Positions 1 to 25,660 of a stretch of DNA of 64,000 nucleotides are shown piece by piece (positions within the stretch are counted from its first letter, which is position 1; the number at the start of each line of letters is the position of its first letter). The position numbers and the translations under genes were made by a program. This DNA comes from Nemertoderma westbladi. Its lineage: Eukaryota; Animalia; Xenacoelomorpha. Below the pieces are notes generated by a model. It ran no database searches, had not been told where the DNA came from, and worked only from the letters and a program-made list of their open reading frames with translations. Location: contig JAUCBJ010006988.1 in the NCBI GenBank assembly GCA_032718475.1, positions 124,001 through 188,000 on the forward strand, in the 5' to 3' direction.

Positions 1-2498
1 CTGTATACAAATGTCCTTGAAAATGGCGAATCCAGCGCTGTCTAACTTCTCAGCAGCTGAGTTTCTTAGGCTGAGCTTAGTCAAAGCGCGGTCCTTGAAC
101 TGACTATCAACGTTACGGAACAGAGTCAGAAAGCGCCTAAAACATTCAAATCGGATGAATTTATTGTGTTCATCTAGCTTGGCGAGTTTGGTTCCAAGTA
201 ACAAGGGATGAGCGCGTATGGTGCGACTGCACACATCGGCTAGCCAACCGGCAAGTGCGGCGTTCTCGAAGATAGTGTATATAGCTAATGAGGAACGAAG
301 TGGAACACTCATGAAGCTATAAACGACGCCAGGTGCAGTTAATGGTCCGTCGAAGTATAATCGAGAATAATGATCTCCATATACTTGTTGATAGTTGATA
401 GGGTTTCCGACTTTGAAATTCCATCCATATTCTTGAAAGGCAAGATGTCCGATGGAGGTTCGTTGGACTTTATTGATGCCGCTGGATGTATTGGCATACA
501 TAGTTCGGAAGAAACCTCGGCCTTCTGCCCAGGGAGCAATCAGCTGGGTGTCTACGAAAGGATATGGGATATTCTCCATGTTCCTAAAGTCATTCTGGAG
601 ATCTCCATAAACAGCTGAGCCGATTTTAAGGATTCTTTCGTTGAACAACATCTCGAGCACTGGCTGGGGTAACATCGATCCATCCATACCCATGGCCAGT
701 TTGCGCTCGGTATCGGTGACGTAACGCTATGCGAGTTCGAATTGTCCATGTCGGAGTTTCTTTTGGATCTCGGTGAGAGTCTCAAAAGAATAATCGATCA
801 CGTCGGAACACGCTCGGGTAAACACATGGGTAGAACCAGCTAGTCCACGTATGTGTATCATCCGCGTAGTTCCCAGCTCTCCAACCGGAACGCCGGTTTC
901 ACCATATAATATTGAGTTAGATTGACGTAATAAGGATGGTCTTTGATCCCATAAAATGAGTTCGGTAAAGGTGTAGCGCGTAGGTTGACCTCGTGTACCA
1001 TACGACGGACAAGATCCGCTCGATTGTCCGGAGGTTCAACGAGTATACCGTCGACACGAGCGGCCTCAATTGGCGGACGTTGTAACATAGGAGCGTCAGT
1101 GATAAGATCTCGAGATCTTAGGTTGATATCAACCAGTTGGGGTTGTACCGTGGCGAAGAGTTTGTCTCCGAAATGGGGAACTATCGAGGGATGAATGATG
1201 GTTTTGGAATAGAGATCAGTCATAAGGATTTGAGCTTCTGGTTGGGCTAAAGCTGCTTCTTCTCTCTCGTCCATTTCGATGTGCTTCTCCTCGAGCTGAT
1301 TTTCCTCCGCTTTTCGTTGGAAGCGTTCATCTAAAAACTCTTGTAGAGAGTTTTGCCGAATAGCATCTAACGCGTTTCGTACAACGCTCTCCTCCACCTC
1401 GGTGACGGGTTGTATCGGGGTTAAACCGGGACGATTATACGGGTTGAACGGCGATATTAAATGTCAGCGTCCCAATCCGGCTAGATTGGATGGGCGAATA
1501 TCTAGAGAGCCCACTACCGGAGTGCCACCGATTAATTGTTCGGGTAACACTAGATCTTTGAACAGTGAGTACAGTTCAGGGGGATCCGTTATACTATTAG
1601 GATCAAGAGTCTGAGGTCTCACTAGGGAATGAGGAGGTCTGAGCGAGTATTCCGGAACTCTGATCATCGGTTTATTTAAGGATCGTTTGAGTCGAGCGAG
1701 CGTAGGTGACACGTCGAACAAGTTTTGCTCCAAACTCCCGTAAGTATAGCGAGTAAAGCTGTGTTTAGCGCAACGTCTCCGCGGATGTTTATGTCTTTCC
1801 GTTTGTTGGTTGGGTCTAGGGCATTCATCGCAATAATACCAAAGACGGACGTCTTGTAGGGGAAACGATGGTGATCTTTCTCCAGTTTCACAATATTCCT
1901 CCATCTGTTCGAAGCTATCTGGTACAACAGGTAGCGGTCGATCGGCGGTAAGATACATCATAGTGAAATAGAGTCATTTGAGTTCTATCATAGGGTCATG
2001 ATGTATACCTTGAGGATATCGAGTTTCTAGATTTTGTTGACTGGCTACATTGAGATATGTTTCTCTCAAGAATTCCAGATATTCGTTGAAGTCACTGCGT
2101 TTATCCGGCTCTTCAACGTCTTCTCTTTCGAGTCGGTTTCGAATAGAATTTTCGTGTTTGATTCTCAGTTTATCGTTCCGACTCCGCTGGGTATGATATT
2201 TAAATAGGATCATTTCCCTTTCGGTGTCTACATCGTCCGTATCGTGTAAATCGATAGGATTACCAGTAGTTAAGAAGTCCATATACGTACCATTACGATG
2301 CGTATAGCGAGCGGTGAATTTTCTATAGTCCAATTCACGCGTGAGCTGTTCCTTTGACATTGGCGGTTCGATATAACGGCCATCGTCCTCCGTAGTGGGT
2401 TGACTAGCGTCACCGCTTATTAAACTATCAACAAACGCTTGCAATGGTAGGGTATATCGCTCCCTGATACCAATATCATATTCTATCAACTCAGTCAT
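1..2498 (-). pseudogene. Disrupted long extra ORF (>830 codons) downstream of BEL pol, with putative DEDDy/RNase D-like 3'-5' exonuclease domain in its distal part
   Basis: ORFs 1974-2498, 1464-1961 and 858-1397 share one frame and are separated only by single TGA codons. After a frameshift near 915 the reading continues (one TAG at 727-729) and is open to position 1: ...GTTRMIHIRGLAGSTHVF...MLPQPVLEMLFNERILKIGSAVYGDLQNDF...FVDTQLIA...SIGHLAFQEYGWNFK...YFDGPLTAPGVVYSF. This resembles WRN/EXD2/RNase D exonuclease segments in the right order. Confidence 0.6.
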
Positions 2499-4225
2499 AG
2501 CTGCTATATGAGTTTATCGATATTATAATTAATTATATTTAGGCTAGCGGTCGTCGCTGCCTCCCCCTCAATGCCCCCGGACAGCGCAAGATCCTCAGCG
2601 CTGATGTACTGTCATCGCTGTGCCTCTCGCCAATGTAGTAGCTACACAATGACAACAATAACCGGCGAGAGTCACTCCACTGTCCGTCCCAAGGGCTTAG
2701 AATTACTTCAGGTTCTTGCTACAGAGGTAGGGCAACTTTCACAACTGCGACTCGCTACTGTAAACACACTTTAGTAGTAACATTCACCTATAAATGCACA
2801 AATTCCACACAACTGTCACACATTGTACACATTCGGGCCATTTGTCCGTTAGTCAAGTGCCTGCCATGTTATTATTATGTATCCCTGGATACTAGCAGTG
2901 TGCCATTTATTCCGTATGCTATTCAATGGGGCAATCTTTCTATTGTTCTTTTAACTCGCTTCTAATTCTAGCGTGGTTGTTGCTATGGTGACATTATGGA
3001 AAGCTAGCAGTAGAATTAGGGTAATTCTCATGCATACAGATCTGGGATGCTATTTAATAGTAATTCTTTAATTGTCAATATTCCCCTTTATACAAGATTT
3101 TATGAATTTTATCGGCTATTGACTATATATTGAAAATTCTCGCACACTAATATACTTAATAGGGTGAATCTCTGCTCCCATGATCTATCAATTAATGGAA
3201 TTTTGGGAATGTTATAAATTGTATAAAATAACAATTTATCAATTTCATGAGAGGATATGAATTTAAATTTATTCCCGTAAATTTTATTATTTAATATTAA
3301 AATAGACACAATTTTCTTCCAGAACATGTCTGGGGACTAGGATCCTTAATTCTAGGAAATTGGTCTTTTTAAGAGTATCGGTAAGTACTACGATATCTTA
3401 ATCGACTAGAATTTTAAAGGATCTGAATTTTAACAGATTTTGGATTTCTAGATTTTCTTGGTTTACAAACTCCTTAGAGTAGATTTGTCTGTTTTTTACT
3501 CTATTATAACATTTGTTTTAATAGATTTTATAAATATTTATTAAATATTTAATATTTAAGATGGGCACCGATTTATTCCAGAACATGTCTGGGGACGTTA
3601 ACCACTGATTCTAGAATTTTGTCTTTCAAGTATATCGGTGGGTGCCGCGATATCTTAATCTACTAGAATTGCAGATGGTCAAAGGGTTTAACAGATTTAT
3701 TTTGCATTTTACGCTACTGTTAAATGGACATCATTCTACTATATGTATTATTTAATATACGGTATGAGAGCAATATTGCAAGAAGCAATGTCAGTGAGAA
3801 GAGGCAAGTCGTTTCCAAGGTCTACCCAGAGTTTGGTTTAGCTGAGACACGAGGATCTGAACTTTGCATTCCTAATACTCTACTTACCAATAATACTTGA
3901 GTATAGTAGGGGCAGTATTTTGTACTTTAATAAGTACAGACATTTAATCTTACTGTAGTCCATGTATTTATAATATGATACGGACAGTAAGGAAAGAGAA
4001 AATAATTATTTCTCGCCGTTACACTAAATATAATGCTAAGTATTTAAGTAATAAACACGAATATATATATTGCACTAATCTACTAAATAATCGTTAAAAT
4101 AATATTCTACTAAATAAAATTAAAGAAAACGATTATAATAAAATTACATAATAATACATACATAAATATAAAAATAATAAAAAAAAAAATAAAATAAGGT
4201 AGTCACACACCCACTCCAGATGCTG

Positions 4226-7200
4226 TTACGTTGGGGAGTCCCTTGATGTTTGTTGGATTAGGGAGGTGGTCGTGGGAAGAGTATTTTGCCTTCCATAGTT
4301 TCCGGATAGTTCTCTGTCTCTTTCCAGTAAACATAAACGACCAACTGGGCGATTGAGTTGTTGTGTTTCGAATACAATTCCAGGTTTCTTAAAGTTAAGT
4401 CGAATGACGACGAGTTCTACCGATCGCACTAAACCATCATCGGATATATGAGTCTCGATGATACGACCTATCTGCCACCGCTTACGTGGAAGATCTGATT
4501 CCACAATAAGGACTATGTCTCCGGCGCTGACGTTTTCTTGCTGCGCAAACCACTTGGTTCGAAGTTGTAGCGTAGGCAGATAATGTTTTTCGAAATGGTC
4601 AGCAAAACGACGGGATAATAACTGAATAAGTTGCCAAGTTTGTCGGCAGTATTTGTCTCCGTCCGTGATTTCCGATTGTGGGAGCATGGCTACAGGTTTC
4701 TTCAGTAGGAAATGCGTGGGTGTTAGAGCTTCTAGGGAGTCGGGACTCAATGAGACTGGCATAAGCGGTCTCTCGTTAAGATAGGTGGCGATTTCTTCCA
4801 TTAACGTCCGCAATAGTTCGTCGGTGAGATACGCGCGGCAAGGCACTATAAAGTAAAATGCGGTCTTCACGCTCCTTATTAATCTCTCCCAACTTCCTCC
4901 CCACCAAGGGGCGTCGGCGGCGTTGAAGGTCCAGCTAGATGCTGTTACCCTTAGCTGATCGGCCACCTGTCTTTGGTTCCAATCTTTAATGTAAGCTTTG
5001 ATCTCGTTATTGGCACCAATAAAGTTCATTCCCTTATCAGATCTCATTGTGTTGCTAGTTCCAAAGCGAGCGATCTGTCGGCGTAAACTCAGTATGAAGC
5101 TGTTGGTAGATAGATCGTTCACCATATCTAGATGGATCGCTCTACAAGTCATACAGAAAAGATGACACACCATCGCTTGACTATAGTCCTAGCACGATAT
5201 ACTTCAATAGGGCCAAATAAATCCACACCAGTATTAGTAAAGGGTGGTTCATAAAAGCTTACTCGTTCCCTAGGTAATTCTGCCTCTCGCTGTGTTAAAG
5301 GCCTACTGAATGCTTTCCTACAGGGTATACAGTTCCTAAGAACTTGGTTCAGAGCTCTACGGGGCTTATGGAAATAATAGCGAGTTCGAATTTCGCTAAG
5401 AACTCGTTCTCTACCAGCATAGTAAAGCCTACTGTGAACATCTACAATCATCTTGATTTGTATTTCAAGATTTCTAATGAGTATGGGAAACTTAGTGTCA
5501 AAGGATAATGGAGCATTAGTTAGTCTCCCTCCAACACGTATTAACCCATCTATCATTGTGCTAGAGAAACGATCCCTTAAGCGCATCTGTGGATTTCTCA
5601 ACAACAGGAAATACTTATCGGAATCTTCATAGCATTGCAGGAGTCTCAGTATCTGCTTATTGGTTTCTTCATGCTCTTGATAACTGATCTTCTCCGTCAG
5701 AAACCTATCCGACACTTTGTAAGTGGGAAGATCTTTAATAGCATGGACCTGTTCGGATATCATCTGAGCAGTAACATTAGCGATCTTCGTCCTGGAATAG
5801 TGATGGTGGAAGCATCTTTTCAGATACACGACAGCCTTACAAAGCCGATTCCAGGAGTTATAATGATTTATCGCTCTCTGCAGGAGAGGTGAGAGTCCCT
5901 GCGAGATGTCTGGTGTTCCAGATCTCCAGTCTCTCTCTCTGATCTCCACAACAGATCGGTTCGAGGTGGGGGAGTTTAGATCCACAGCGTCGTCCCTGGC
6001 AATCTGTAGTACAGACAGATCTATCACGGGTTTAAATAACCTTGATTTACTCGTCCGGGTTTTAGGTTTGACTTTCTCCACTCCCTTGGCTTGTCTAATC
6101 TCAGCCGTGGTGAGATGAGTAGGCCATTCATCCTCTTCTTTACTTAGGAAGTCGGGTCCACCTAACCAGTCAGGAGTATCTATCAGTTCTTGAGGAGTTG
6201 CTCCTCTGGAGGCGATGTCGGCTGGATTAATCGTCCCAGGGCAATGTCTCCATTGATCTACATTAGAGCGACTAAGTATAATGGCTACTCTGTTGGTAAC
6301 GAAGACGCTGAACTGACAGACTTCATTGTTTATATACTCCAAAACGAGTAAAGCATCAGTCCAATAGACAGTTTTCTCCAGTGGATAGTCGATCTGTTCT
6401 GTTACATTCCGGCCGATGGCTGTAGTGTATAGAGCCGCCTTTAACTCCGCTCGAGGAGCTCGTAGTTTATTGTTTATCAAGGCCTTAGAGGTGACCAAGG
6501 CAACTTTGATTCCATCTGGAGTTTCAACCCTCAGGTAGGCTACTATACCTATTCCCATATCGCTGGCGTCTCCAAACACATGGAGTTGATAGGAATACGT
6601 GGGGAGAACATGACCAAAATATGAACGGGAAATCGTAAAGTTCTCGATGGACGGTAGAGAATCTTCCCATTCCATCCACTTCTTTAGTAGTTCTCCCTTA
6701 AGTGGATCATCCCACGAGTGGTTTTCAAGCCACATTTGTTGCACTAAGCTCTGAGCAACCAATATAACTGGACTAATAAATCCCAATGGATCGAAATAAG
6801 TGCTCAGGATACTTAGACAAATCCGTTTAGTTCTAACTGGATTATCTCGCTGTTTTAACTGGAAAAACTAGATATCTCTCTCCGTGTCCCATTTTAAACC
6901 AAGTGTTTTGGTTTCCGGAAGATCGTCCTTGATGAGGTCCAGATCTTTAACACCTCGGTCTTCTACCGGGATCGATTCCAGAAACTCACGGGAGTTACTG
7001 GTGAATTTGGTTAGTCGAAATCCACCGCGTTGCAAGCACTCTACCATTCCCTTGGCAACATCAATGGCTTCTTCCACTGATGCGAGGGACTTTAAATTGT
7101 CGTCCATGTATATATCCCGTTTGATGTTGTCAATAACCGCTTTAGAGAAGGCGTCTCGGTTGTCATCAGCAGTGGTACGCACTACTGAACAAGCGTTCGA

Positions 7201-10200
7201 GGGGCTCGAGATAATCCCGAAAGCCTAGATGGTCATCCAGTACTCCACCGGTTTTAGGTTGAGATCTCCTTCAGGCCACCACAGAAATCGTAGGCTGTGT
7301 CGATCCCTATCCAGCGCCTTGACTTGTAAGAACATGCCTTCTATATCCGAAGCGAAAGTGATAGAATATTGCCGTAATCTTAATAGTATTCCCAACAGTG
7401 ATTGAAGTAAGTTGGGTCCCGGCAACAATTCGGAGTTCAGGGATTGACCCATGTAAAGGGCGGAGCCGTCGAACACTACCCGGACTTCGTTGGGTTTACC
7501 TGGTTTGGGAACGTAATGATGTGTTAGATAATACGTTCTCTCTGTTATGGGTGTTTCTTCCGGTACTCGCTCCGCGTATCCCTTATCGATAAATTTCTTC
7601 AGCTGGGTTTTATACATTTCCCTGGCTGAAACATTGGCCGTAAGACGCCGATGTAGTTGCGCGATTCTCTTTTCCACTAAAGGTCGGTTATTTATAAAGT
7701 TGGGTTCTCGCCGTCGGAACGGAAGACCAATCTCATAGCAACCTTTATCTTTTAGAAAACGGGTAGTCGTTTCCTGAATCTGCTTGGCTCTCTCTTCCTC
7801 GACGGACAAGGCCTTGTCATAGGAAATAGGCTCTACGGCTCGATAGGAGGTCGATTGTATTTTCCTCGTCATATAATTGGGTGATATCGTCATTGTCTGA
7901 GGAGTATGGTGTTCCCTCAGTTGTGGTTTCTCCATCACTGATTTCATCTTCCCATTCACTCACCTGATGTAACCTGTCATTAGGGAGTCTTTCCATTAGG
8001 GTTCTACGGGAAGGTCAAGTGAAGTACCAACCTACTCTCGTTCTTCCCGCGTAAGTTTGTAATGGTTGCGGTCGAGCAGGCCGTTTTTCTAAGGTCTCAA
8101 GCGTTTCGTGCGCGTTTTGGCCAATTAATATCTGAACCCCTGGGTAATCGGTGTTGAATCTAGGGATATCATGTTGCTGGGTAAAATGGTCTTCATCCCA
8201 GTTGTAAGGTTCCACTTGGCTGGTAGCAAAGTTCTTTATCGACACCATTTTTACTGACCTTATGCTACGTTCTCCTAGTTCATCCTGGGGAGTGGGCAAC
8301 GCACCCACGTAGTAATCTGTAGCTACTGTGGATTTCCAAACCTGCATAATTCCTGAAAGGTTCAACTTAGTTCGGAACTTAGGTTGTCCAGCAAAGATGT
8401 CTTCGGCTAGTTCTTTGTCGATGAATGTACCTGTGCTGCCGGAGTCAAGGAGGGCGTTTACTATGAGACTCTTCCCTAGCCCATGGACTCTCAGCTGCAC
8501 AACAGTTGTCGGTCTGGAATAGTCAGTCGAGGCTCTTCATTTTCGGTTTCAGTCTCATACGTAAGTGCTCGATACACTGCGGTGTTTATCATATAACAGG
8601 ATTCGTTTTCGTCGGAGAATTCGTCCGTGTAGAATCCTTCCATCTCAGAGCTGTGGTCAGTGTCATTCACATCACTGAATTGGACATGTAGTTCGGGCTC
8701 ACTCACCTGACTCGTGTGGGTTCTGTCAAATTCTATGTGCACCAAGATATGATGTTTCGCGCCGCACTTAGCACACCTCGCATCTGAGTAACAGGTCCGC
8801 CGTTGGTGTCCTTGTCTGAGACAATTATAACACAACCGCTTATCCCACATGACATCACGTCTATCCTTTAGGGATTTCTTCAAGAATTCATCACACCCAC
8901 TCAAGCGATGGGGCCCGTCGCACAATGCACATTTGGGTTTGATGTTACTTACTTTAACCTGTGTGGTATTGTGCACAGTTGTTCTTTCCTCGGGTTTTCT
9001 TCCATGAATTCTCTTAGGAGACGTTGGAGGAGTTGTTACCTGTTCTCTCCCATCACTGGTTCGAGACTTAAATTTACTTACGTCTTTTCTCGTTTTATTG
9101 ACATAATAAGATCTTTCCGTGTCTTTCCCGCTGTTCTCCTCGTAGGAGGTTTGGCTTTCGCCGTCGTCTGTATAACACACTGGTGTTACCTTTCTCCTAG
9201 AAACGGGTTTTTCACTCACCTTATTTTCCGGTGTCTTCTCTCGGGACTGCTTTAGGAGCTGTAATCTTACCTCTCCATTTAAGAATGACATGAGATCAGC
9301 CATGGTAGGGTCCCTTTGTTGCTGGTCCATCATAGAGAACGCTTTTGTCCCAACGAGTACCTACTCCACCCTTTGGCAAAGTAGATGCTACAGCTCCAAC
9401 AACCATGGAACTCTGATATTCATGAGACTTACCTAACCAATCTAGTTGTCTACAGATCTCCTGAATCTCATCGGAAAACTCTATAATCCCGCTGTTAAGG
9501 AACTTTCTGGGTGCTACTAATTTCGCATACAAATACGTAGCTATGTTAGTCCTATTGCCATACATACCTGATGTTTAGTGTATCCCAAACTTGTCTTAAT
9601 CCATCTGGATGTCCAATAAACTTTAACGCCATTAACTTGGGAGGTCCTTCCAAGCACTCGATGAGGAATCTAAGTTTCTCTCCGTTGGATAGTACAGAGT
9701 TCTGTATGTTATCTTTATAATATTCATTAAAAGGTAACCATTTCATCTCATCTCCATTGAACTTGACGACCTCTCCCACCTTTACCGCTTGACGGGCTTC
9801 AGTTCTAGCCATTTGACGCGTAAAACTTTCTTGGGCCATCGTATTATATAATATCCAGTTATCGGTATATAAATTTCTCGGATTATGATCAGGTCTATAT
9901 GGAATATCATTATCAACAGGTTTATAATTACCCTTAATAGGGTTTACTATAGGAGTTTCTACTTCACTAGCAGTATAGATGCGTGTAGGCTCCACACCTT
10001 GCGCATGAAATACTTCAGACCTAACAGGTTGACACATTGTTACAGGGGGTGGTGGTATACCCATTTGTATATTTACTATTGTACTTTGTATTTTATATTT
10101 ATCGCGCTCTAAAGCGATACTGTGCTGATACTTCTTTCAACTCTAACCTATTCTCTCTCACTGTTCCCTTTAACTGCTGAACAGTCCCTTCTAACTCTCA

Positions 10201-10497
10201 GACCTGATGGGAAGAAAGTCTTTTGTATTTTTCCAGCTGCCCAAGCAGGCAACTCATCCCCTGCCTTCCCTCATCCACCCACTCGACCGCTGCTGCGGGA
10301 GCCGCCAATGTGGGTGACGCGTGGGGACGACGGGAGACAAGTCATTTATGTCTTGCTCGGCGTCCAGGACTGGATGTGGTTCCGGGGCTTGTCTACTGGG
10401 CACAGGTAATTTAGTACTGTGCAAAGGGAATTTAGAGTTAGGTTCTGGAAGTACAGGTGTCTCTATCACAGAGGTAGTGGCTTCGAGGACAGGCCTA

Positions 10498-10498
<1 letters not shown>
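4226..10498 (-). pseudogene. BEL/Pao gag-pol of copy A, 3' part (gag core, zinc knuckles, aspartic protease, RT, RNase H, integrase), frameshifted
   Basis: CALCDGPH/CYNCLRQGH/CAKCGAKHH knuckles; ALLDSGSTG protease; RVVFDGS, SDIEGMFLQV and YMDD RT; LHVFGDASD Pao RNase H; GVDLFGP, SDKG.NF and APWWGGSWERLI integrase. Split over many ORF fragments. Confidence 0.95.
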
Positions 10499-10530
<32 letters not shown>

Positions 10531-11097
10531 ATATTAATCCAAATAAATGGAGCAATTGGGCAACAACCTCTAAAGCTTATAAAAGCCCTCTTGCCGATTA
10601 ATTACATATTTATGTTTATTGCACCACGGACAGAGATAGATGTTAAATGAAACAAAAGCACACTTTGTTATCCACTGTACGTGATACACATCACACACAC
10701 CAAACGCACCACACGCACAAAAGTACCACAGTCACAAACGCACCCAAACCAAAAAAATGAGATTAGGGCATCAAAAGTAAACCAGCCCTGACCATTGCTA
10801 GTACCATTAATCAGATCGAAATTTATTGTTAAATTCAGAAGTTATGAACGAGTAGTGTGTAAAATAAGTAAAAATTAAGATTAAAAGATAGGTGTTGCAA
10901 TCCGCAAGATATAAAAGTTTAAAGGGGCAAATATTTGGAAGAATAAGTAAACCACTAACAAAAATTAAAAAGACTAAATTCTAGAATTGTTTTGCACTTT
11001 ATTATACATATGTTGTTCTGTTCCACTATGTTATTACTGTAATTTAAAACCTGAAAGAGAAAACCAGTGGTATGTTGAAACGGATGTACAGACTACC

Positions 11098-14000
11098 CTA
11101 ATAGCCGAGACTGTTAAATCGACCTGTATTGAATACGAATATTGTAATTACATCGATAAGGGCGACCGCCTTGTCGCGCAGCGCTGTTGTGGAGACTGGG
11201 TGACTGTCAGGTCCGTGTGGTGGGCCAAATAAGATAGTGGTAAGTGTTGGTCTTAGTCCTAAAGCCGAACTAGCTGCATGCAATATAATATGGTGAGAAT
11301 GAAATAGTGGGCATTCCATAAAGTAGTGGAAAACGTCCTCCCGTTGATGGCCACAGGAACATGATTTGACGGTTTGGACATGATTGGAGTAAAGGTCAGA
11401 GTTCAGAGATGAGCAATTACATCTCAGTCTGGCAAGTAAGCCGTTTATAGTTGGAGACCCAAGGGAGTAATAGGGAGGGATTGGATACAGAGAACAAAAT
11501 ATAGGCAATACACTTTGCTTAAAAGTTGTGATAGAGTCTGCGGACTGCTTATCTGTAGGAAGACTGTTCCAGAGACGAACGACGGAAGGCAAGAATGAGT
11601 CTCTGTAAAAGTTTCTGCGTGCCATTGGCGGACGAATGTTGCCAGAGTTACGGGTGTCATAGACGCTGGTAGACCTTACAACAGGGGGAAGCATGTCTAG
11701 TAAGTGCTGTGGGGCGTGGCCAGACATCATTTTATAGAAAATACACAATTTCTGATAGTCCCGTCTTTGTTGAAGTGGACATAGACCAGACTCCTTGTAC
11801 AACTTGTTTGTGGGGCAAGATATTGTTAATCGACACACGATTCGAATTGCTTCCTTATTTAGGAGCTCCAACTCAGTTTTGAGTTCCTGAGAACAGTTGT
11901 CCCAAACGGCACCGCGTATTCCAGGTTTGAATGAACAAAAGATTTGTAAATGTTAATTAATGCGTCTCTACCAACTTTGTACTTAACAATTCTTAACATG
12001 TTTAACTTCTTGTTGGCAGCGACGAGCATTTTTGCAACCTGTGAATGCCATTTTAAGGAGGATGAGAAGATGAGGCCGAGATGCCTATGCTCTGAGACTT
12101 CTGGGATAGGAATACCGTTGAGAAATAAGGGGAGGTGATTTGGGTCGCGCGATTTGCGGTGAGAAAAAAGCATACACTCAGATTTAGCAGGGTTAAATTT
12201 GACCAACCATCTTGCTCCCCAATTGGAAATTGAGTTGAGATCCGCATTAAGTGCGGATGCGGCAAGGATACAATTCGACCTAGAGTTGACTTCTATGTAA
12301 AGAGCTGTGTCGTCAGCATAGAGACTAATATTACCAGTGACTACGTCTACTATGTCATTGATAAAAATCAAAAACAGTAACGGGCCCAACACAGAACCTT
12401 GTGGAACTCCAGCCAAGACCTTAACTCATGATGACTGTTGACCATTCACTACGACGCATTGAGAATTATCTTTTAAATAGTTATGAAGCCATTCAAGAAG
12501 CTTTCCTCCAATACCCATGTTTTCGATTTTATATAGAAGACTTTAGTGGTGGACTTTATCAAATGCTTTGCTAATATCCAGGAAAACTATGCGTACCTCT
12601 TTTCCTTTGTCTAAGGCATTAACAAGGGCGTTGTATAGAGAAATCAATTGGTAGATGGTCCCATCACCACTTTTAAAGCCAGACTGAAATTTTGAAATGT
12701 AATTTTTGACATGAGCAAAGATTGTTCTGTGGATGTAATGTTCAAACAGCTTGCCGAGGTTACTAGTAAGGGCCACAGGATGGAAGTTGTTGCAAATATC
12801 GTTTGGAATATTTTTTAGGAGTGGCAAAACATAACGCAATTTCCAGTTCTTCGGGTGAACCGCACTATCAAATATGAACTGGAACAGTTTAGAAAGGTGA
12901 TTTATGATTACAGGCATCCCGGCTTTAATCATTTTATTGGAAATCCCCTCAGCCGCACAGGTAGCACTGTCAGGGTCTAAAGTTTTTATGTCACACAGAA
13001 TTTCGGGCGTATGAAAGACAATCTCAGTTAACAAAGGTTCTGGAAAAGCAGTATGAGGCATAATGAAGTTTGATTCATCCAATGAATACTGGTCGATGAA
13101 AAAGTAGTTGAAGAGGTCTGCTTTCTCTTTTGGAGTGACAGCAACAACATTATTATAAGATATTGAGGGAATCTCCTGTTCTGGTACTTTCCCCAGCAGT
13201 TGTTTACAGATCGACCACCATTGTTTACTGGAAAATCTGGTTGAAATGAGTTTGCCCGACAGGTTTGAGAAATACTCCTTTTTTGCTTTACGGCATTCAA
13301 GAATGTACTTGTTTCTGGCTAGGCGGAAACTGGTCCAGGAGTTGTCATTGTTAGTAGATTTTGCTGTCCTGTGAACTCTGTCCTTTATACGAGAGAGGCG
13401 CCTTAACTTAGTGGTGTACCATGGCTTGTCGTTTGGGCATACAGTAATAATTTTGTTAGGAATGGAAGAACTCGCACAGAGCATAAATTTGTCAGTCCAT
13501 GCAGAGACAACTTTGTTAACTTCTGTATGCTCTAAGTAGACACTATCCCAGTCTGTTTCACTCAACAGATGCCTGAATTTTGAAAAATCCGCCTCCTTGT
13601 ACAGCCAAATGCGCCTGGTGTACGATGGGATGTTTCGAATGGGAAATTTATATGAGAAAGAGATAACACAATGATCACTTGTGCCATAAGGGCTAGATAC
13701 AACTATATTGGAAATTGAATCGGGAAGATTTGAAATAACAGATGACGGCGAAGTGCTGGTCAATTGTGTTATACGTGTTGGCTCCCTAATATGTTGGAAT
13801 AAACATTGGCGTGAAATAAAGGAAGTTATTTCACGACATTTTGATCGGTTTAAAAGGTCCTGGTTGAAGTCGCCCAAAATAAGTATTTCATTGAAACCTA
13901 AACTTTTTATTTCTGAAACCATCGAATTTGCTGCTTCCCAAAAAGAACTAGTACTGGTGTTGGGGCGATAGAATAGACCTATGGCGAGTTTTCTAGAACT

Positions 14001-14498
14001 AAGGGTACAGGAGCACCACAATGATTCGAATAGGGGATCTATATCCTCTATGTTAGAGAGTCTCTTAACAGTAAACATATTGGAAATGTATAAAGCTAGG
14101 CCACCACCGTGCGAAGGGCGGTCACTGCACTGAGGTTCATGAAACTTTGAAATAAGGAATTTCTTGGAAATATGTGCTGGTGAAAACCATGTCTCGACAA
14201 ATGCAAGAACTTCAAATTTTGAGGATAAATTTTCTGGCAAAAAATCCCAATTGCAGGATAATGACCGAATGTTCGTCAGCATAACTCGGAGAGATGGGAG
14301 ATTTGGGCCGGGGTTAGGGTGAATGTCCCCAGATATGTACAAAATAAAGATTAAACAAGCAATAAACCATACGAGAGCTAAGCCTGTAAACATCCATGAG
14401 GTAAGAGTGTCTAAAAAGTGCTCACTTTTTAAGTATCCGGAGATAGCCCCATGAAAAGTCCCCATGCTTGCTCGCCACTGCTCAACAGAGATATTCAT
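11098..14498 (-). pseudogene. LINE ORF2: APE endonuclease + reverse transcriptase + C-terminal Cys/His knuckle (two stops, one frameshift)
   Basis: ETW, GGGLALY, YRP, LGDFN, PTR and SDH APE motifs; FLDISKAFD, GVPQGSVLGP and YADD RT motifs; C-terminal CSCG..EDVFHYFMECP. Confidence 0.93.
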
Positions 14499-15169
14499 TT
14501 AAATAGGAGGAAACGAAATTGAATGAGGTAGCGAGCGCGCGAGAGGGGGTGTCTTGTAGGATTGCAACACGCAATTCACACTGATTGTCCCAGAGAGAAA
14601 ATTATGTTTGTCAATAAGAAAGATGACACAGCGACAGGTAGGTGCTGATTGGTTTGGGAATGTTCCAACACACGAGTGACATTCATACAAATACCCCAGT
14701 ACACGTACAGCACACACACACAGCACACACGACAGACACACAAAATAAGAGAATGGGATGGAATGAGATATGAGTGGAATGGGGTAAACCCAAGAAGCGG
14801 AAACAATGAGATGACATTGTGTTTTATTGTAATTTGTATTCCCATCACCATAAAATGTATTAATAATATAACATATAGCAATATGGGGTAATGAAGGCCT
14901 AACAACTGACAAAGCGGCACGTAATAAAACAATACAGTTTTGCTGGCTATCAATCACCGTAAAAAAATGTTTAAGTTGATTACCAACAGGAACCCAGTAA
15001 TATAAGGTGTTTATTGAATTACTAAACCTATACTGTATACTTAAAAGTAAACAGCAAAAATGGTAATACCGAAGTAAATGCCGGTACTAAAAAAAAATAT
15101 GTTCACTGAGTTCGCACATCCAAAGGAACTACTTGCTTTTAAAAGTAAAAAAAAAAAAAGAAAAAAAAT

Positions 15170-15600
15170 TTGTTTAAACCAAACGGCTTTACTGCTCACT
15201 TACTTGAAATTATAAAAAAACATGCTAATAAACAAAAGTAACTATTACTGTTCTTGAAATGCTTGTGAAAAAAAAAATTTAATTTAAATCAAACGGCTTT
15301 GTTGCTCATTTACTTGATATGAAAAAAAAATGCTAATAAACAAATGTAACTATTACTGTTCTTGAAATGCTAGAAAAAAACAACCGGAATATATTTAAAT
15401 CAAACCGCTTTACTCCTCACTTACTTGAAATTATAGAAAAATATGCTAATAAACAAAAGTAACTATTACTGTTCATGAAATGCTTGGTAAAAAAAAATAT
15501 TTAATTTAAATCAAACGGCTTTGTTGCTCATTTACTTGATATGAAAAAAGAAAAAAATGCTAATAAACAAAAGTAACTATTATTGTTCGTGAAATGCCAT
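15170..15600. repeat. About 110-bp tandem repeat x4 in the LINE inter-ORF region
   Basis: ttaaatcaaacggcttt..gctca.ttacttga..tgctaataaacaaaagtaactatta.tgttc.tgaaatgc recurs near 15174, 15284, 15394 and 15505. Confidence 0.85.
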
Positions 15601-15715
15601 TGCCATGCATTTTACATGCACTAGTCAGAACCTGTCGTCGAGATTAATAAATTGGTTTGGGCTGTAAAAAGCGCAACCGCAATTTGATGCGTTAGCTTGG
15701 TAGAAGATCTTACAA

Positions 15716-16757
15716 CTAATTGCCAGTGAGAAGGGAAGTTAAACCTGGAGCCAACCGCTTCAGGGAGAGCAGGATATCAGCGAGACAGACCTTAGGATCT
15801 GTAGGGTTATGGAAATCGGTGATTAGCGACTCCACAATATCAAGAATAGATTTGAGATGGGTGATCTGTGTTGTTTCACCAGATAAACTTTTAGCAAAGA
15901 TTGAGCCATCCCTTGTCCAGCAGTCCGAGATTAACTTAGCCTTAACAAGTTTGTGACACTCGTAGAATAAAGAAGCACGGAAAGGGGTAAGGCATTCGTT
16001 GATGTATATGCGATCGGCAGCTATGTTTGTCTTTAGCTGAAATCGCGACCTGAAAAAACGATCTCGCGCTCTGTAAGTAGAGAACTTTACAACTAGTTGT
16101 TTTTTATTACGGGATGGGTGAAACCGCGACGTATCTTTCTCTAATTCGAATGACTCAAGGCCGCAACGCTGAGCAATTGTGCAAAGGAGGTTCTCAATTC
16201 TATTGTCGAGGGAGGGACTGGTTGCCAGGTTTGTTGGGGGGGTCACCTTGTTGTTAATTGTCGAGTCGACTAACGGACCGGATATTAGGAGGGTTTCGCG
16301 TCTTAAGTACTGGCTGTCCGAATCAGACTTCAATGCCAAACTGAATAAACTGTCTGATAGCTTCGAGCATTCTGAACATGGTTGTTGGAGTTTGGCGTCG
16401 ATTTGAAGCGACTAATTTGTGGGCGAGGTCATCGAATTTGATGGCAATCTGGTCGGCGATATCGGAACCCAGGGACTTGAGGAGGGAACGGATGGAAGGG
16501 TCTGTTTCGTTCCCGCTTCCGGACAGCGTCACAGAGGGAAAAACGATATCCAACTCGGCAGGGACAGACTCGGGCACTGCGCTCCAAGCGGGAGCAGGTT
16601 GGCCTGCCGGTAAGCGTTTTGCATCAGGAGAGGAAACCAAGGAAGAGTGCGAAAGATCGCTGTAGTTGCGCTTACCAGTACTGCTCGTATCGGTAGAATG
16701 CGCAGGGTCAATGTTATAGGGTGAGATCGAGTTTGGCTTTGAACCAATGTCAGACAT
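15716..16757 (-). pseudogene. LINE ORF1 (frameshifted near 16330-16400); RRM/CTD-type ORF1p
   Basis: LLISG, VVKFSTYRARDRF, IYINECLTPFRASLF and DCWTRDGSIF are typical of the C-terminal half of CR1/L2-group ORF1 proteins. It lies upstream of ORF2. Confidence 0.8.
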
Positions 16758-16937
16758 ACCGCTATTATTGTGAAAAGTAAGAATCAGAACCCAACCAGAT
16801 GAGGAAGTTAAGCAATATTAATATACAAAGTGCAATAATGCCGGATCGGTTGTAAACTACATCTCAGTGTGTACCGGTAGGTAGGCTAAATTGAAAGTCT
16901 GAAATAGGTGATGCTCTACAAAACTACTGACCGTGAC

Positions 16938-18517
16938 CTTTCTACTCTAATAATTTGGTCTGTGGGTTGAGGATTACTCAAGTCTACTCTCGCCTTCTCA
17001 CCGCAGGTGGTAAATTAGGTAACTTCTGACGGTGTGGCATTCTTCTACGTCCACTTGAACGAGATTTATTACCTCTTCCTTCAGGATGTGTTGTATCACC
17101 CTCATCGGAGGAGGTAAATCCCTGTCTTCTGGGAGTAGATCGACTCAGTAGTTGCATCTGAGTAGCTATTCTTTGTTTATTTAAGTAATCTTGTTTCACC
17201 TGAAGGTTCTCCAGCTCTAGTTGTGTAGTCGCTTCAGACGCCTTCCGTTCTGCTTCTGCCACTGCCGCCTTTCTTTCAGCTTCCGCCGCTGCCGCTGACC
17301 TTTCAGCTTCCGCCGCCTTTCTTTCAGCTTCTGCCGCCTTTCTTTCAGCTTCTGCCGCTGCTGCTAACTTTCGGTCTTCTATTTGCCGTTTCTTTAATTG
17401 TTCTTCTTGATCCATTGCCATGTGGATGCTTTCATCAAATTTAGCCTGCTCCGCGGCTAATATTTCCGCATCTAACGAGTCCAACACAAATTTGGCTCCC
17501 TCACTATTAGGGTGAAGTCCGGCTAGCCGTCTCCTTAGCTCTTTGTCACCTATAAATCGTTGATAGTCCGAAAGATAGATGTCAATAGCATCCTTCTTCT
17601 GAGGTTTCTTGGATATAACTTCGCCTTCCACCTGAGAAAAGGTAGCGTCTGTTGATTCTCCGTGGGTCGCGCGCTCAGTTAGCTGAACTTTCCATTGTGT
17701 CGTTCCCTGGACTTTAAGGCTCACTCGTTGGAACCAAGTCTTTACGGCCACTTGCAACGACGTGTCTTGGCTTCTCTTCGAAGCTTCTTCAAAGGCCGAA
17801 AGGATTAGTCTGATCCGTAAAATTCGTTCTCGCACTTGATAAAGCAGCTCTCCCTGCTCTTGAGGTTCTTGACGTTGTTGAAACAGTTGTTCCTCTAAGC
17901 GCTCCAAAGAGCTGAAGAATCCCTGGACATCGATCTCGAGTGTCCCTTACTATTCCCATCCTGTATAAGTCCTCCCAGGCAGCTACCAATAAGTTAAACG
18001 GGAGTCCGGGTTCAGGGAAGTTCCATTGCGTCTCGACAATAGACCTCAGTTCCTCCATCGTGTATCCCGCATAACTGTCCCTGGTCGATCGCTTACTTCT
18101 CGCCCAATCGATTTGATGTTCTTCCACCGCGATCAATACTCTAGTGAGTACGGCTCCAGGGAGAATTAGAAGTGGATCTGGATAAACCGCTTCTGTCATC
18201 CTTGCTCCGATCTCGGGTGTCAACTCTACAGTGTCTGAACTACTGGAGTTATCGGGCCGCTGAGAAATAAGTTCTCGGTTCGGGTGCTGCTGCTGTTTAA
18301 CAGCTGTCTCTTGGTCCCGCTTGACTTGAGCCCTAGTGCCTATGATAGACCTATGGTGCTTTACTAGCCTAGGGTCTGATACTACTACTATAGGGATGAC
18401 CTTTCTTACAGTAGGAGGGGACTTGGACTTCGGTCTCAGATGTTCTATACTCTTATCTGAGTCACAGACTGTTCTTTCTAGGAGACTATCTGACAGTGTT
18501 TGCTTTGTGTCAGCCAT
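16938..18517 (-). pseudogene. BEL/Pao gag N-terminal part of copy A
   Basis: MADTKQTLSDS... is homologous to the starts at B 27992 and C 57667. Contains an Ala-rich AAEAERK repeat and a small frameshifting deletion near 17930. Confidence 0.9.
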
Positions 18518-18654
18518 GATTTATTTTACAGTTGAATGCCTACTACTATAACGACAGTTAAAGCAAGTCTAGTAATTCAGTATCAACTGTAAGCCTAGTA
18601 ATTAATTACCGATACCGTTACTCAGTGTAACGTGATATATGTGTAATATATTAA

Positions 18655-19020
18655 AATACCGGTATATACTTATAATATATATATAAGTATTATTATAGAC
18701 TAGGATTAGTCACAGAATACCGGTATATAATTTCAGCCTAAATTTATATAAATAAATATAATAAGCCTACCGTAAATACCGGTATACACCTATAGTATAT
18801 ACAAGTATTATTATAGACTAGGATTAGTCACAGAATACCGGTATATAATTTCAGCCTAACTTCATATAAATAAATATAATAAGCCTACCGTAAATACCGG
18901 TATACACCTATAGTATATACAAGTATTATTATAGACTAGGATTAGTCACAGAATACCGGTATATAATTTCAGCCTAAATTTATATAAATATATAATAAGC
19001 CTACCGTAAATACCGGTAAT
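18655..19020. repeat. About 120-bp AT-rich tandem repeat x3 just upstream of gag ATG (copy A; equivalents at about 27480-27855 and 57290-57530)
   Basis: aagtattattatagactaggattagtcacagaataccggtatataatttcagcctaa recurs at about 120-bp spacing. Confidence 0.85.
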
Positions 19021-21599
19021 GTCAATTATTTTATAATAACTGAATTTCTGAATTTTTAGGGTTACTTCCCTTTTACTTATTACTGTTATTAAGCAGTAGT
19101 CCAACTGATATTAAGACCTAATTGATGTATAACAGGCCTACTATTTTATAAATCTGTTTGAGTTGATTTATAATATATATATATATACCCGTACAATGGG
19201 TTTTGACAATGTTTGAAATAAATGTTATTATTTCTGGGTAAGGGGGTCACTACATAGATAATTCTACTTTACTAAGTTACTTATCACTACAAATTACTTA
19301 CAATTACAGTTTGAGATTACAATCTCTAAATAAACACTAAAAAGTTAGACATACAATTTTTTAGGGTAATTTTACAAGAAATCTACAAACCAGTCTAACA
19401 AGGAGTTAGAATTTCTGGTTCTTACAAACTGACAGGGAGCTATGGTATTTGAAAACAATAAAGCAGTAGTAAGTAAGTTGCGTTGTCCAGATAAGAAAAT
19501 ACCACCATCTGACGACTTATAGTCTTAGCTCTATAAGTACTACGTTATGTACCCGGAGTGTCCTTACCTAGAGGTTAATTACCAAAGCCAACAAGAGCTA
19601 ACGTGCCTATTAACCACGTTACAACACGAATATACTGCCAACACACTAAATTACTTTCGGAAAGCACTGTACTCTAAACCCTAAATTAGGTACAAGTACT
19701 TATACAACAAATAACTAGCAGTTAAATATACTTGTATAGCCAAAAGAACCACGGTATCTGCGGGAGTGACCGGAGCACAAAATCACCAGTCTTTACCTAC
19801 GCCAATCAGCCCTGATGTAGTACCGGGGTTAATTTAACTATAACGGTATGTATAACAAGCACAATTACTGTAGGAATTAACTTGGGGAGTTGGTGGTTGC
19901 GAATACTCGCATAGATTCTGAATAATAAATATTACGCTACCCGTGCAGACTATACAAACAAAATACAGACCAAATGCTGGCAGACTACTGTCAAGCCTAA
20001 ATAAACTACAGTATATGCAGACTCCGAAATGGTTAGTTAGTAGGCATTCTAACCGAGTAGTACGACTTATTCTTTCGGGGGGATTTACCTTACAACACTG
20101 GATGCCCCCACCTTCCTAACTAGCACTTTATCGGACAGCAACTCTACATGCACTGCAATCGCTTCAGACCTAACAACAGCCAGACAACAATCCGGCCTAC
20201 AAATTATTTATACAATCTGAGCAGGCTTACACGCCTTCTGCTCAATATTACACTTACAGATAAATAAAACTGACAGAAATAAATAAGCTCTAAAAGAAAT
20301 AAGGGGTGTACAGTCCCTAATCTCTTAATCAGCCTACCAATATACAATATATTGGTATATAATTACAATATACTATATATTCGAAATAATACTGGTACCG
20401 GTAAGTACCGGTTCGGGTGGTTAGGTAGTTAGGCCTACAGTTTACCGTCCGACCGGTACATTAGACTTTATTTCCCACTGTGCAATAAAGAAATTATGAA
20501 ATCTATTATTGTTCGCGCTTTTAGACCTTTAGCAGTTTAACCTGCCAATTTTAGTTGTCCTCTTATTTATAAATCGACTTTAGCCTATATCAATTATTTA
20601 ATGTACTGAAGTTACATCAGCCGAAGTCAGTCTGTACGCGATCATTCACCCACAGTTAAGGGAGACTGGATTCGGGTGCCTTGAAAGTTATTGCGGTGTA
20701 GACCTACTGTATTATTCGATTGATCGTTACTATATAATCTCTGACAAATATATTTACTTTCGGGGAAATATTAACAGTTCCTTTAGGACGTGGCGTTTTA
20801 AGTATAAAAACAGAGTTATGACTTATACTAATCACAACTAGATGGCCATAGAGTTTCGTAAATAGCGCATTCTTTAGGAGATGCTTTATTATCTTTCACA
20901 CTACTTCACACGACTTCACACTAATTCACACTACTGCACACTAATCTGTCGACCGTCACTGAATTTGTTCATATATAAGGAAGATCGCAACTGACACTTG
21001 TAGGGATTATGAAATAGCATTTAATTCACACAAAACCACTATAATTTAAGTCGCAGTTGCTACCGGTAACCTGTTCCTCTCACCTTCAGTAATCAAGAAG
21101 ATTGGGGGTTTTATGATTATTCATCGGTATTCTCCAAATAAATCAGCGATATACATCAATATAACAACAATTAATAACAGACTTCCAAAATAGAAGTAAA
21201 ATAATGCGGTGAACAGTCAGTATGTGTTACAATAGTAATTAAGCAATGTTACGAGTAATGGGCCAAGATAATAGATTTACGTTCTTGTAATCAAAGCCAT
21301 CAGATGTTTAGGCCAAAGTCTGAAACTTCCAAAACAGAAGTACAGAAGAATTCCAAGCCGGTTCTGCGCGCGAGCTGGGGAAAGATCTTCTCTGTGCTGG
21401 GGGTAAGAGCGCGTAAGAAAAGGGGGAAGAGGGGGAAAGAAAAGGGGTATGGATCTATAAATAGCATCCAATGAGACGCCTCTATTTTACGACCGTTCTA
21501 TACTGTAAACATACAGCTGTCTACCTTATTGAGAAGTGGTAATACTACTTAATAGTTGGTAAACTTACCCCCCCCCCCCCCCCCCCCTCCACCTATCAT

Positions 21600-24050: not shown

Positions 24051-25660
24051 GAGACATACTAGTGGCAGTACGTGGGCGAGCTGGGGAAAGATCTTCTCTG
24101 TGCTGGGGGTAAGAGCGCTGTAAAAGCTTTTGCGGAATTAGCTGGTTATTTTCCCCGCAAAGTACTCTGTAGTTGGTTTAATGGACATAAAAAGCCGTTT
24201 CCTTACTGTACCGGTGTTTTAGTGAACATAAAAAGCCATTTCTTCTGTATGTGTACTTTAGCGGACATAACTAGCAATTTTATGTCGCAATACGCTAAAA
24301 TCCCCTTGACACAGTGTAGTTACTATGACGACGGCTAACAGCTGATATGTACACGTGTAGCTTTTTCTTTGTTTCTTTGTTCGGACAACCAATCAGAGCG
24401 ATTTTCCTGTTATTTGTACAGAAACCTCCGGGAAATCGCGCAATGCATTACAGTTTATGTTTACCTTTTTTCCTGATGCCAGAAGACCGGCTTTGGAATC
24501 TCTGTGTTTTCAGGCTTTAGCAAAACATTAGTAGGCTTGATCATAGGAACGTATAACTGTTATCTAACTAACCAATCGCCACACAAACTAATCACAAGTC
24601 AGTGTGTCAAATCATATTGTCAACTACAAACACCACATTTTTACTGCTATTTACTGTCGGTTATTAATTATATCAGTTGATGGAATATTATTATATTTGG
24701 ATAATATCGGTGAATAATCATAAAACCCCCAATCTTCTTGATATACTGAAGGTGAGAGACTGGTTACATATAACAATTGCGACTTACATGATATTGGTTT
24801 TGGAGTGAATCTAATGCTATTTCATAGGCACTACATGAGTCGGTTGCTGTTCTCTTTTTATGTGACTAAAATTAGTGAAGGTTGGCAGATCAGTGTGCAG
24901 TATTGTGCGGTAGTGTGCATGATTGTGACTGATAACAAAGCATCTCCTAAAGAATGCGCTTTATACGTGAATCCATAGCCATCCCGTTGTGTCTAGTGTA
25001 AGTCATAACTCTGTTTACATATTTAGAGCGCCACGTCCTAAAGGAACTGTTAATATTTCCCGAAAGTGAATAATATTTGTCAGAAATTATATATTAACGA
25101 TCAGTCGAATAATACAGTAGGCCTACACCGCAATAAGGTCAAAGCTTCCGAATCCAGACTCCCGGGTATATCCAGCGGGTGAATGGTCGCGCATAGACTG
25201 GCTTCGGCTAATGTAGTGTATCAAATACTCGTCATAGGCTAAAGTCGATTTATAATCTAGAAGACATCTAAATTTGGCAGGTTAAACTGCTAAAGGTCTG
25301 AAAGCGCGAACAATAACAGTTATGATCGTCTGATTGCAGTGTAGGCAATAAATACAGTTTAATATTGTTCTGGTAAAAACAATAACAGTTATTGCTTCTG
25401 TATTGCAGTAGGCAATAAAGCTGAAGTACCGGTCGACTGGTACCTGGTAGGCCTGACTTCCTAACCACCCGGACCGGTACTTATAGCAGTACAGGTACAG
25501 CAGTATTATTCGATTTTGATAATTATATACCGGTAGGCCTTAATATTTAATCAGGGACTGCAGCCCTGGTTTTTTATTGAGATTTTACTTATTTCTGTCA
25601 GTTTTATTTATTTGTAGGCCAATATTGAGCAGAAGACGTGTAAGCCTGCTCAGATTGTAC

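What the first reader, a model, noticed from the sequence alone, without database searches (positions are those of the whole stretch)
1..2498. BEL/Pao element with a large extra ORF carrying a DEDDy-like 3'-5' exonuclease (possibly pseudo-nuclease) domain
Seen: three same-frame ORFs joined by single TGA codons, a frameshift near 915, and a reading frame open past position 1 that the ORF track omits. Together they form one ORF of more than 830 codons, co-oriented with pol and 1.7 kb downstream of it, in the position where env would sit. The part from about 930 to 280 reads YYVNL/..GTTRMIHIRGLAGSTHVF, LPQPVLEMLFNERILKIGSAVYGDL, FVDTQLIA, SIGHLAFQEYG, FDGPLTAPGVVY. Established: these segments parallel RNase D/WRN/EXD2/Mut-7 DEDDy domains, and DEDDy extra ORFs have to my recollection been reported in some invertebrate LTR elements, so novelty must be checked. 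Exo II Asp appears retained. Exo III reads YSFMS rather than YxxxD, and Exo I falls on the frameshift. A Cys/His cluster (CDEC...HKH...CAKH) lies upstream. Inference: this is a captured RNA-binding nuclease or pseudo-nuclease. Host relatives (Nibbler/Mut-7, EXD1) act in small-RNA pathways, so it could be a counter-silencing or RNA-processing factor.
Basis: partly seen in the sequence, partly recalled or inferred. Interest (0 to 1): 0.85.

Follow-up and report, generated by a model that had tools for sequence, protein, structure and literature searches.

The report
BEL/Pao retrotransposon carrying exonuclease-like third gene
A large, decayed BEL/Pao jumping gene in a likely animal genome carries, where retroviruses keep their envelope gene, a long extra gene that recurs in many diverged copies and resembles RNase D-type enzymes, so it likely trims or binds RNA ends for the element, a kind of cargo described before in other retrotransposon groups.

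Summary
The extra ORF is real. It lies 1.7 kb behind a BEL/Pao pol. Its C-terminal part resembles DEDDy 3'-5' exonucleases: RNase D model E=0.004, one homologue among 1.84 billion representatives with an intact Exo I and CCHC knuckles, joint profile match E=4.5e-7. Both folds failed. Thousands of diverged genomic contigs cover the ORF; two stops are private to this copy, and 17 of 28 listed differences fall on third codon positions. Exo II Asp is present. Exo III most likely reads YxxxE, not YSFMS. Exo I cannot be read. So the pseudo-nuclease reading is weakened but not excluded. A second copy in the window stops 56 bases before the ORF, and no 3' LTR is in view. DEDDy third genes are published for rotifer Juno/Vesta LTR elements and Terminons, and this scan noted similar cargo in Gypsy elements of other genomes. 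I found no BEL/Pao case. Verdict: new variant of a known kind; function untested.

The parts
1..2498 (-). ORF3 of copy A, more than 830 codons, open at position 1; broken by TGA at 1976-1974 and 1466-1464, a frameshift at about 850-935, and TAG at 729-727
   Evidence: covered throughout by diverged contigs
262..935 (-). DEDDy-like (RNase D-like) 3'-5' exonuclease domain; best-supported core 666-532
601..603 (-). Asp aligned with Asp85 of E. coli RNase D (Exo II; catalytic role of that residue recalled)
265..279 (-). YTIFE, preferred Exo III register (Tyr, then Glu at the Asp position)
   Evidence: rival register 321-307 (YSFMS)
1761..1832 (-). Cys/His cluster (CDEC, HKH, CAKH) in an N-terminal region of about 520 codons with no family match
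2575..2700 (-). Predicted long hairpin 77-202 bases upstream of the ORF3 ATG, kept in copy B (36775-36900)
   Evidence: z -1.9 (A) and -4.95 (B); 42 pairs, 0 broken, 1 compensatory, 4 one-sided
2499..4225 (-). Non-coding spacer between pol and ORF3, with two diverged direct repeats (3288-3440, 3546-3698); more conserved between copies than pol silent sites
   Evidence: 113 of 1569 versus 105 of 432 differences
4226..8536 (-). BEL/Pao pol, decayed: protease, RT (YMDD at 7110), RNase H (Pao peptidase A17 model), integrase, DUF5641
8491..18517 (-). gag region with three Cys/His knuckles (8931, 8832, 8775) and a long N-terminal extension; split by a LINE
10505..16937 (-). LINE (endonuclease plus RT, poly(A) tail) inserted in gag of copy A
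18518..21362 (-). 5' non-coding part of copy A; its first ~280 bases are missing relative to copy C
24119..36921 (+). Copy B: shared 5' start, gag, pol, whole spacer; ends at the position matching 2554, 56 bases before the ORF3 ATG; no ORF3 and no LTR follow
54576..64000 (+). Copy C: shared 5' start, gag, part of pol; runs off the window

Best explanation
Positions 2498 to 1 hold a decayed copy of a long third gene that lies behind the pol of a BEL/Pao retrotransposon and recurs in many diverged copies; its C-terminal part resembles RNase D-type DEDDy exonucleases, and in intact family members it likely encodes a soluble enzyme that would trim RNA 3' ends in the element's own ribonucleoprotein. 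Shown: position, frame, lesions, multi-copy occurrence, third-position bias, sequence similarity, Exo II Asp, no membrane segment. Inferred: that ORF3 is a regular part of the family; that it is expressed apart from gag-pol, from a shorter RNA whose leader includes the conserved hairpin; that the active site is of a D-E-D-E type as in the one homologue; that the substrate is the 3' end of element RNA or of a short RNA paired to it. The N-terminal 520 codons would supply RNA or partner binding (unsupported guess).
For: Stop depletion: 3 stops in 838 codons against about 43 expected. NCBIfam RNase D model TIGR01388 hits residues 86-130, E=0.0041, far below its cut-off. The single hit among 1.84 billion representatives, P0003 (E=2.4e-5; 45 of 150 identical), has IDVE, Asp, and Y-x3-E in DEDDy order plus CCHC knuckles; 25 of its 30 Atlas look-alikes are PF01612 clusters. 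A profile from 31 bacterial PF01612 domains ranks P0003, the window's 726-1 frame and P0001 above 1000 shuffles, 2 reversals and the other 234 window ORFs; profile-profile E=2e-4 for P0001, 1.1e-5 for P0003, 4.5e-7 (probability 92.6) for both. Genomic contigs: 22,307, 15,175 and 7,150 records laid in three runs (two samples), 30 of 30 bins covered; more than 99% of depth differs from this copy inside the stops at 729 and 1976; 17 of 28 listed ORF differences are third-position, p=0.003. One contig of another sample crosses the spacer-ORF junction (2498-2630, 8 differences, 2 gaps). Spacer divergence 7% versus 24% at four-fold pol sites. Highest 19-residue hydropathy 1.2. Precedent: PMC5408684.
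Against: No Pfam or PDB sequence hit for the window protein. Both structure predictions failed, pLDDT 31.7 and 30.4, so the fold is unconfirmed. The direct match to known DEDDy proteins covers only about 45 residues around Exo II; the eight short stand-alone bacterial domains gave no match. Exo I is unresolved: no frame aligns with the homologue's Exo I region above shuffles, and one candidate (801-781) has only one acidic residue in DxE spacing. The bacterial Exo III motif scan does not list YTIFE in its top five. Glu in place of the last Asp may lower or abolish activity. Copy B ends 56 bases before the ATG, and depth dips at 2531-2645. Only 40 of 604 difference rows and 32 of about 44,800 contig pieces were shown, so the third-position count rests on the best-supported rows. 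No long record links ORF3 to pol outside this window. Substrate and expression are untested.
Confidence: 0.52

Rival explanations
1. ORF3 is a family gene with a DEDDy fold but no catalysis; it binds RNA ends like EXD1 or Maelstrom and shields element RNA or sequesters small RNAs.
For: Exo I cannot be found intact in this copy. The bacterial motif scan ranks the YSFMS register second. The last acid is Glu at best. PMC5408684 names Maelstrom and EXD1 as inactive DEDD derivatives in piRNA biogenesis (passage).
Against: Exo II Asp is kept. The closest homologue keeps all four acidic positions and the Tyr, and its Exo III segment picks the YTIFE register first of 284 positions. The Exo I region lies at or beside a frameshift in a copy that is decayed throughout.
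Confidence: 0.27
2. The ORF belongs to another high-copy mobile element that sits next to the BEL/Pao spacer only in some copies, so it is not BEL/Pao cargo.
For: Copy B shares pol and the whole spacer but breaks off 56 bases before the ATG. Depth dips 3-6 fold at 2531-2645. No 3' LTR is visible. DEDDy domains also occur in Dada DNA transposons and Terminons (passages).
Against: What follows copy B is neither an LTR nor part of the element's 5' region, which fits truncation. A diverged contig from another sample crosses the junction. Dips of similar size occur inside the ORF (806-920, 1381-1495). The ORF is co-oriented, and 56 bases leave little room for another element's end and promoter. The spacer is conserved up to the junction.
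Confidence: 0.13
3. ORF3 is a real family gene but not DEDDy-related; the similarities are chance.
For: All direct matches are weak and local, folds failed, no Pfam hit.
Against: Independent routes point to one family and one segment: NCBIfam, the homologue and its Atlas neighbours, and a home-built profile with shuffled controls.
Confidence: 0.08

Closest known systems
DEDDy ORF3 of bdelloid rotifer Juno and Vesta LTR retrotransposons (Rodriguez, Kenefick, Arkhipova 2017; PMC5408684; passages and section 3.3 read)
   Same: RNase D-like DEDDy ORF downstream of pol in place of env; no membrane segment; altered acidic motif (they report DEED); Cys/His motif noted in some; activity not demonstrated.
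   Different: The paper's clades are Juno, Vesta, TelKA and Mag (Ty3/gypsy-type by my recollection); the whole word BEL does not occur in it. Here the element is BEL/Pao, ORF3 exceeds 830 codons with about 520 unassigned N-terminal codons, and the likely change is at the last acid. Kinship of the two domains was not tested (no rotifer sequences in hand).
Terminon (Athena, Penelope-like) DEDDy ORFs (PMC5408684, PMC6431247; passages)
   Same: DEDDy ORFs shared among unrelated retroelements, proposed as a retroelement-specific pool.
   Different: Different class of element; hammerhead ribozymes; no Rfam match in 1-4400 here.
Belpaoviridae / Semotivirus (ICTV profile PMC8742986, whole text; de la Chaux and Wagner PMC3118150, passages)
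   Same: gag with three knuckles; PR-RT-RH-IN order; Pao A17 and DUF5641 models.
   Different: Described members are 4.2-10 kb with gag, pol and at most env. This element is at least 15.2 kb without the LINE and without its 3' end, and its third ORF is not env-like.
Dada DNA transposons with a DEDDy domain (PMC3706591; passages)
   Same: Transposon-borne DEDDy 3'-5' exonuclease domain.
   Different: Domain inserted inside a DDE transposase; DNA transposon; all four acids conserved.
Cellular RNase D / Rrp6 / WRN / Mut-7 / EXD1 (PF01612 group)
   Same: Exo II region and motif order; closest reference match is RNase D.
   Different: Far below family cut-offs; longer insertions; Exo III Glu; no HRDC or other host domains seen. 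Roles of Mut-7, Nibbler and EXD1 in small-RNA pathways are from passages and recall.

Membership tests
BEL/Pao (Belpaoviridae) | Pao-type RNase H region (PF05380) and DUF5641 after integrase | tested here: met
   E=8.8e-36 and 1.9e-20, both above cut-off
BEL/Pao (Belpaoviridae) | Pol order protease-RT-RNase H-integrase | tested here: met
   protease hit is weak (E=0.002)
BEL/Pao (Belpaoviridae) | Gag with three Cys/His knuckles (feature recalled) and DUF1759 | tested here: met
   knuckles at 8931, 8832, 8775; DUF1759 E=2.5e-4, below cut-off
BEL/Pao (Belpaoviridae) | Paired LTRs and polypurine tract | not testable with these tools
   Copies B and C share a TG-starting 5' boundary; no second copy of the 5' region in 1-4226 or 35343-38600; all 3' ends are outside the window or lost, and no whole genome is held
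BEL/Pao (Belpaoviridae) | tRNA primer-binding site | tested here: inconclusive
   a rough recalled pattern gave 4 matches against 2.7 expected; the LTR end is unknown
BEL/Pao (Belpaoviridae) | RT phylogeny within the family | not tested
   no reference RTs fetched
DEDDy 3'-5' exonucleases (active) | Profile similarity to PF01612 / RNase D | tested here: met
   weak but above controls; below curated cut-offs; no Pfam hit
DEDDy 3'-5' exonucleases (active) | Exo I DxE | tested here: inconclusive
   lies at or near the frameshift; no candidate above shuffles; present in P0003
DEDDy 3'-5' exonucleases (active) | Exo II Asp | tested here: met
   603-601 aligns with RNase D Asp85
DEDDy 3'-5' exonucleases (active) | Exo III YxxxD | tested here: inconclusive
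   YxxxE by the homologue's register, YxxxS by the rival register; canonical Asp absent either way
DEDDy 3'-5' exonucleases (active) | DnaQ / RNase H-like fold | tested here: inconclusive
   models at pLDDT about 30; no fold search run on them
env-like ORF3 | Membrane anchor, signal peptide, Cys-rich ectodomain | tested here: not met
   highest 19-residue hydropathy 1.07 and 1.22; 4 Cys in each half; C-terminus beyond the window not seen

The most novel reading that the evidence does not exclude
A giant (over 15 kb), high-copy BEL/Pao lineage carries its own small-RNA-trimming nuclease, drawn from a DEDDy pool shared across Ty3/gypsy, BEL/Pao and Penelope-like elements, expresses it from a structured subgenomic leader, and uses it to destroy or mis-trim host piRNAs aimed at it: an animal retrotransposon's encoded suppressor of silencing.
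Probability: 0.15. Interest if true: 0.82.

Novelty: new variant of a known kind. Interest (0 to 1): 0.5.

Why it matters
It extends DEDDy third genes to BEL/Pao, where the sources I read list only gag, pol and env. Repeated use of this enzyme class in the env slot of unrelated elements suggests a recurring need for RNA 3'-end handling or counter-silencing that nobody has tested. Here the family has many diverged copies under apparent constraint, so catalytic residues and selection could be read from one assembly. The limit: this copy is dead and cut by the window, and the concept is already published for other elements.

Tried and rejected
Pfam and PDB sequence searches of the ORF3 pieces: nothing; PHROGs only noise; DUF7009 hit below cut-off, ignored. 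Word-index homologue searches: 0 of 1885 candidates, only P0003 itself among 1309, 0 of 7997. Related loci: none confirmed among 84 metagenome and 16 viral stretches; plasmids only a knuckle match at E=6. AlphaFold2 on one and on two sequences failed; fold search not run on such models. Atlas on the Cys/His piece: no usable hit. Exo I placement by pairwise alignment and motif scan: unresolved. Profile of eight short stand-alone bacterial domains: no match. Rfam on 1-4400: none. tRNA genes: none. PBS pattern: chance level. Sequencing runs: no RNA holder listed; run X5 is only guessed to be RNA and is not used as evidence of expression. A purine-rich stretch at about 2560-2580 was considered as a PPT and rejected, because the shared 5' start does not follow it. 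No whole genome was available. Ten paper searches returned no BEL/Pao exonuclease ORF; scan notes had none either.

Full report
Observation. That is 2 stops in 546 codons and 1 in 292, against about 43 expected in 833. The pol frame ends at 4226 on the same strand.

The element. Pfam gives PF05380 (E=8.8e-36), DUF5641 (1.9e-20), an integrase zinc domain (6e-6), and weak protease and DUF1759 hits. Gag has three Cys/His knuckles and RT has YMDD. This is a decayed BEL/Pao element (copy A), split in gag by a LINE at 10505-16937. Two more copies lie on the plus strand. B (24119-36921) and C (54576 to the window end) begin at the same 18-mer with unrelated flanks. Copy A spans 14,929 bases without the LINE, and C adds 277 at the 5' end, so the element is at least 15.2 kb before ORF3 ends. 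The ICTV profile gives 4.2-10 kb and gag, pol and env only (PMC8742986, whole text). No second copy of the 5' region occurs in 1-4226 or after B's pol, so no 3' LTR is in view. No whole genome is held.

Is ORF3 part of the family? Copy B matches A through pol and the whole spacer, then stops 56 bases before the ORF3 ATG and passes into unrelated DNA; tblastn finds no ORF3 relative elsewhere in the window. That is the main result against linkage. Public contigs were laid on 1-3450 only (four of seven listed runs, at most three samples, one of which may be the source of the window). In three genomic runs 22,307 of 8.9 million, 15,175 of 2.5 million and 7,150 of 1.6 million records were laid, most at 85-99% identity, covering 30 of 30 bins. 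A fourth run with another organism label gave 97 records and 29 of 30 bins. Depth is not copy number, but so many diverged contigs imply many copies. More than 99% of the depth differs from copy A within the stops at 729 and 1976, so these two lesions are private to this copy; the stop at 1466 and the frameshift do not appear in the rows shown. Of 40 difference rows shown (564 not shown), 28 fall in ORF3 and 17 of these are third-position (p=0.003; 16 of 25 without the stop codons, p=0.002), which points to coding constraint. One contig of another sample spans 2498-2630 with 8 differences and 2 gaps, crossing B's breakpoint with 56 and 76 bases on either side. Depth dips at 2531-2645, but also at 806-920 and 1381-1495 inside the ORF. 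No record links ORF3 to pol in one piece. I put linkage at about 0.87.

The spacer differs between A and B at 113 of 1569 aligned sites (7%), against 105 of 432 four-fold pol sites (24%), or 23 of 130 in the adjacent integrase. Recombination between subfamilies could also cause this. A long predicted hairpin sits 77-202 bases upstream of the ATG: z -1.9 in A, -4.95 in B, the lowest window of B's spacer; 42 pairs, none broken, one compensatory, four one-sided, from two sequences only. No Rfam family matches. I read the spacer as likely holding signals for separate expression of ORF3; this is inference.

The domain. Pfam and PDB give nothing. NCBIfam's RNase D model hits residues 86-130 of the 921-1 frame at E=0.0041. 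The 726-1 piece finds one protein among 1.84 billion representatives, P0003 (E=2.4e-5; 45 of 150 identical). P0003 is an unnamed 648-residue singleton with IDVE, an Exo II Asp, Y-x3-E and CCHC knuckles; its genomic context is unknown. It has a sub-threshold PF01612 hit, and 25 of 30 Atlas look-alikes are PF01612 clusters, score 0.94. I built a reference from 31 bacterial PF01612 domains. It ranks P0003, the window's 726-1 frame and P0001 first, above 1000 shuffles and 234 other window ORFs. hhalign gives E=2e-4, 1.1e-5 and, jointly, 4.5e-7 with probability 92.6. For the window protein the match is limited to about 45 residues around Exo II, and the subset of eight short stand-alone domains did not match. 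Both AlphaFold2 runs failed (pLDDT 31.7, 30.4). There is no membrane segment, so this is not env. The 520 N-terminal codons, with the Cys/His cluster, match nothing.

Active site. Exo II: the Asp at 603-601 aligns with RNase D Asp85 (its catalytic role is recalled). Exo III: the bacterial motif finds KPLCHDQLYYIYCE first in P0003, and that segment picks VPLRSSLAIYTIFE first of 284 positions in the window protein, with the same Leu-x6-Tyr-x3-acid spacing. I favour YxxxE at about 70%. Exo I: unresolved. It may lie at the frameshift, or be the stretch at 801-781 that MAFFT and hhalign align with IDVE and that lacks one acid; no frame scores above shuffles.

Mechanism. Most likely, intact family members make ORF3 separately from gag-pol as a soluble protein whose DEDDy domain trims RNA 3' ends in the element's ribonucleoprotein, either element RNA or short RNAs paired to it. 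Gene, position, spread and similarity are shown; expression, catalysis and substrate are inferred. The pseudo-nuclease reading (0.27), a neighbouring unrelated element (0.13) and chance similarity (0.08) remain.

Prior knowledge. Rodriguez et al. 2017 report RNase D-like DEDDy ORF3s in rotifer Juno and Vesta elements and in Terminons, with DEED motifs and no demonstrated activity, and suggest RNA 3'-end processing or a silencing-related role (PMC5408684; passages and section 3.3). Reviews repeat this (passages of PMC6431247, PMC6338049, PMC5718144). Dada DNA transposons carry the domain too (passages of PMC3706591). The BEL/Pao survey PMC3118150 has no occurrence of 'exonuclease' in its main text. 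Ten searches of the open library found no BEL/Pao case. Subscription papers, Repbase and supplements were not seen and could hold one. Unchecked notes of this scan describe Rrp6-like or dead DEDD third genes in Gypsy and other LTR elements of other genomes but none in BEL/Pao; they lowered my sense of rarity and are not support.

Verdict. A real, family-wide, exonuclease-like third gene in an unusually large BEL/Pao element: a new variant of a known kind. Interest 0.5.

Noticed in passing
window 2575-2700 (-) and 36775-36900 (+): Long predicted hairpin just upstream of ORF3, kept in two copies with one compensatory change; no Rfam match.
   Followed up: partly
window 16984-18517 (-), 28416-30817 (+), 57680-59390 (+): Gag has an N-terminal extension of several hundred codons with an Ala/Glu-rich repeat and no convincing Pfam match; the 5' non-coding part is about 3-4 kb with tandem repeats (290 and 118 bp units).
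   Followed up: no
window 10505-16937 (-): Apparently full-length LINE with ORF1, endonuclease-RT ORF2 and poly(A) tail inserted in gag of copy A.
   Followed up: partly
window 21370-21416 and 24076-24123: A direct repeat of about 47 bases abuts the 5' ends of the divergently oriented copies A and B, flanking a 36-bp tandem array; may mark a rearrangement.
   Followed up: no
window 44481-45257 (-): Uninterrupted cyclin C-like frame (PF00134, PF16899); looks like an intronless gene or retrocopy.
   Followed up: no
window 38671-43751 and 49956-51460: Minisatellites with 21-bp (241 copies) and 35-bp (43 copies) units that create long spurious ORFs.
   Followed up: no
P0003: Unnamed 648-residue protein joining a DEDDy-like domain with D-E-D-E acids to three CCHC-type knuckles; looks like another retroelement accessory ORF; context unknown.
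   Followed up: partly
window 1417-1540: Several contigs leave the reference here, so family members differ in the linker between the Cys/His region and the rest of ORF3.
   Followed up: no
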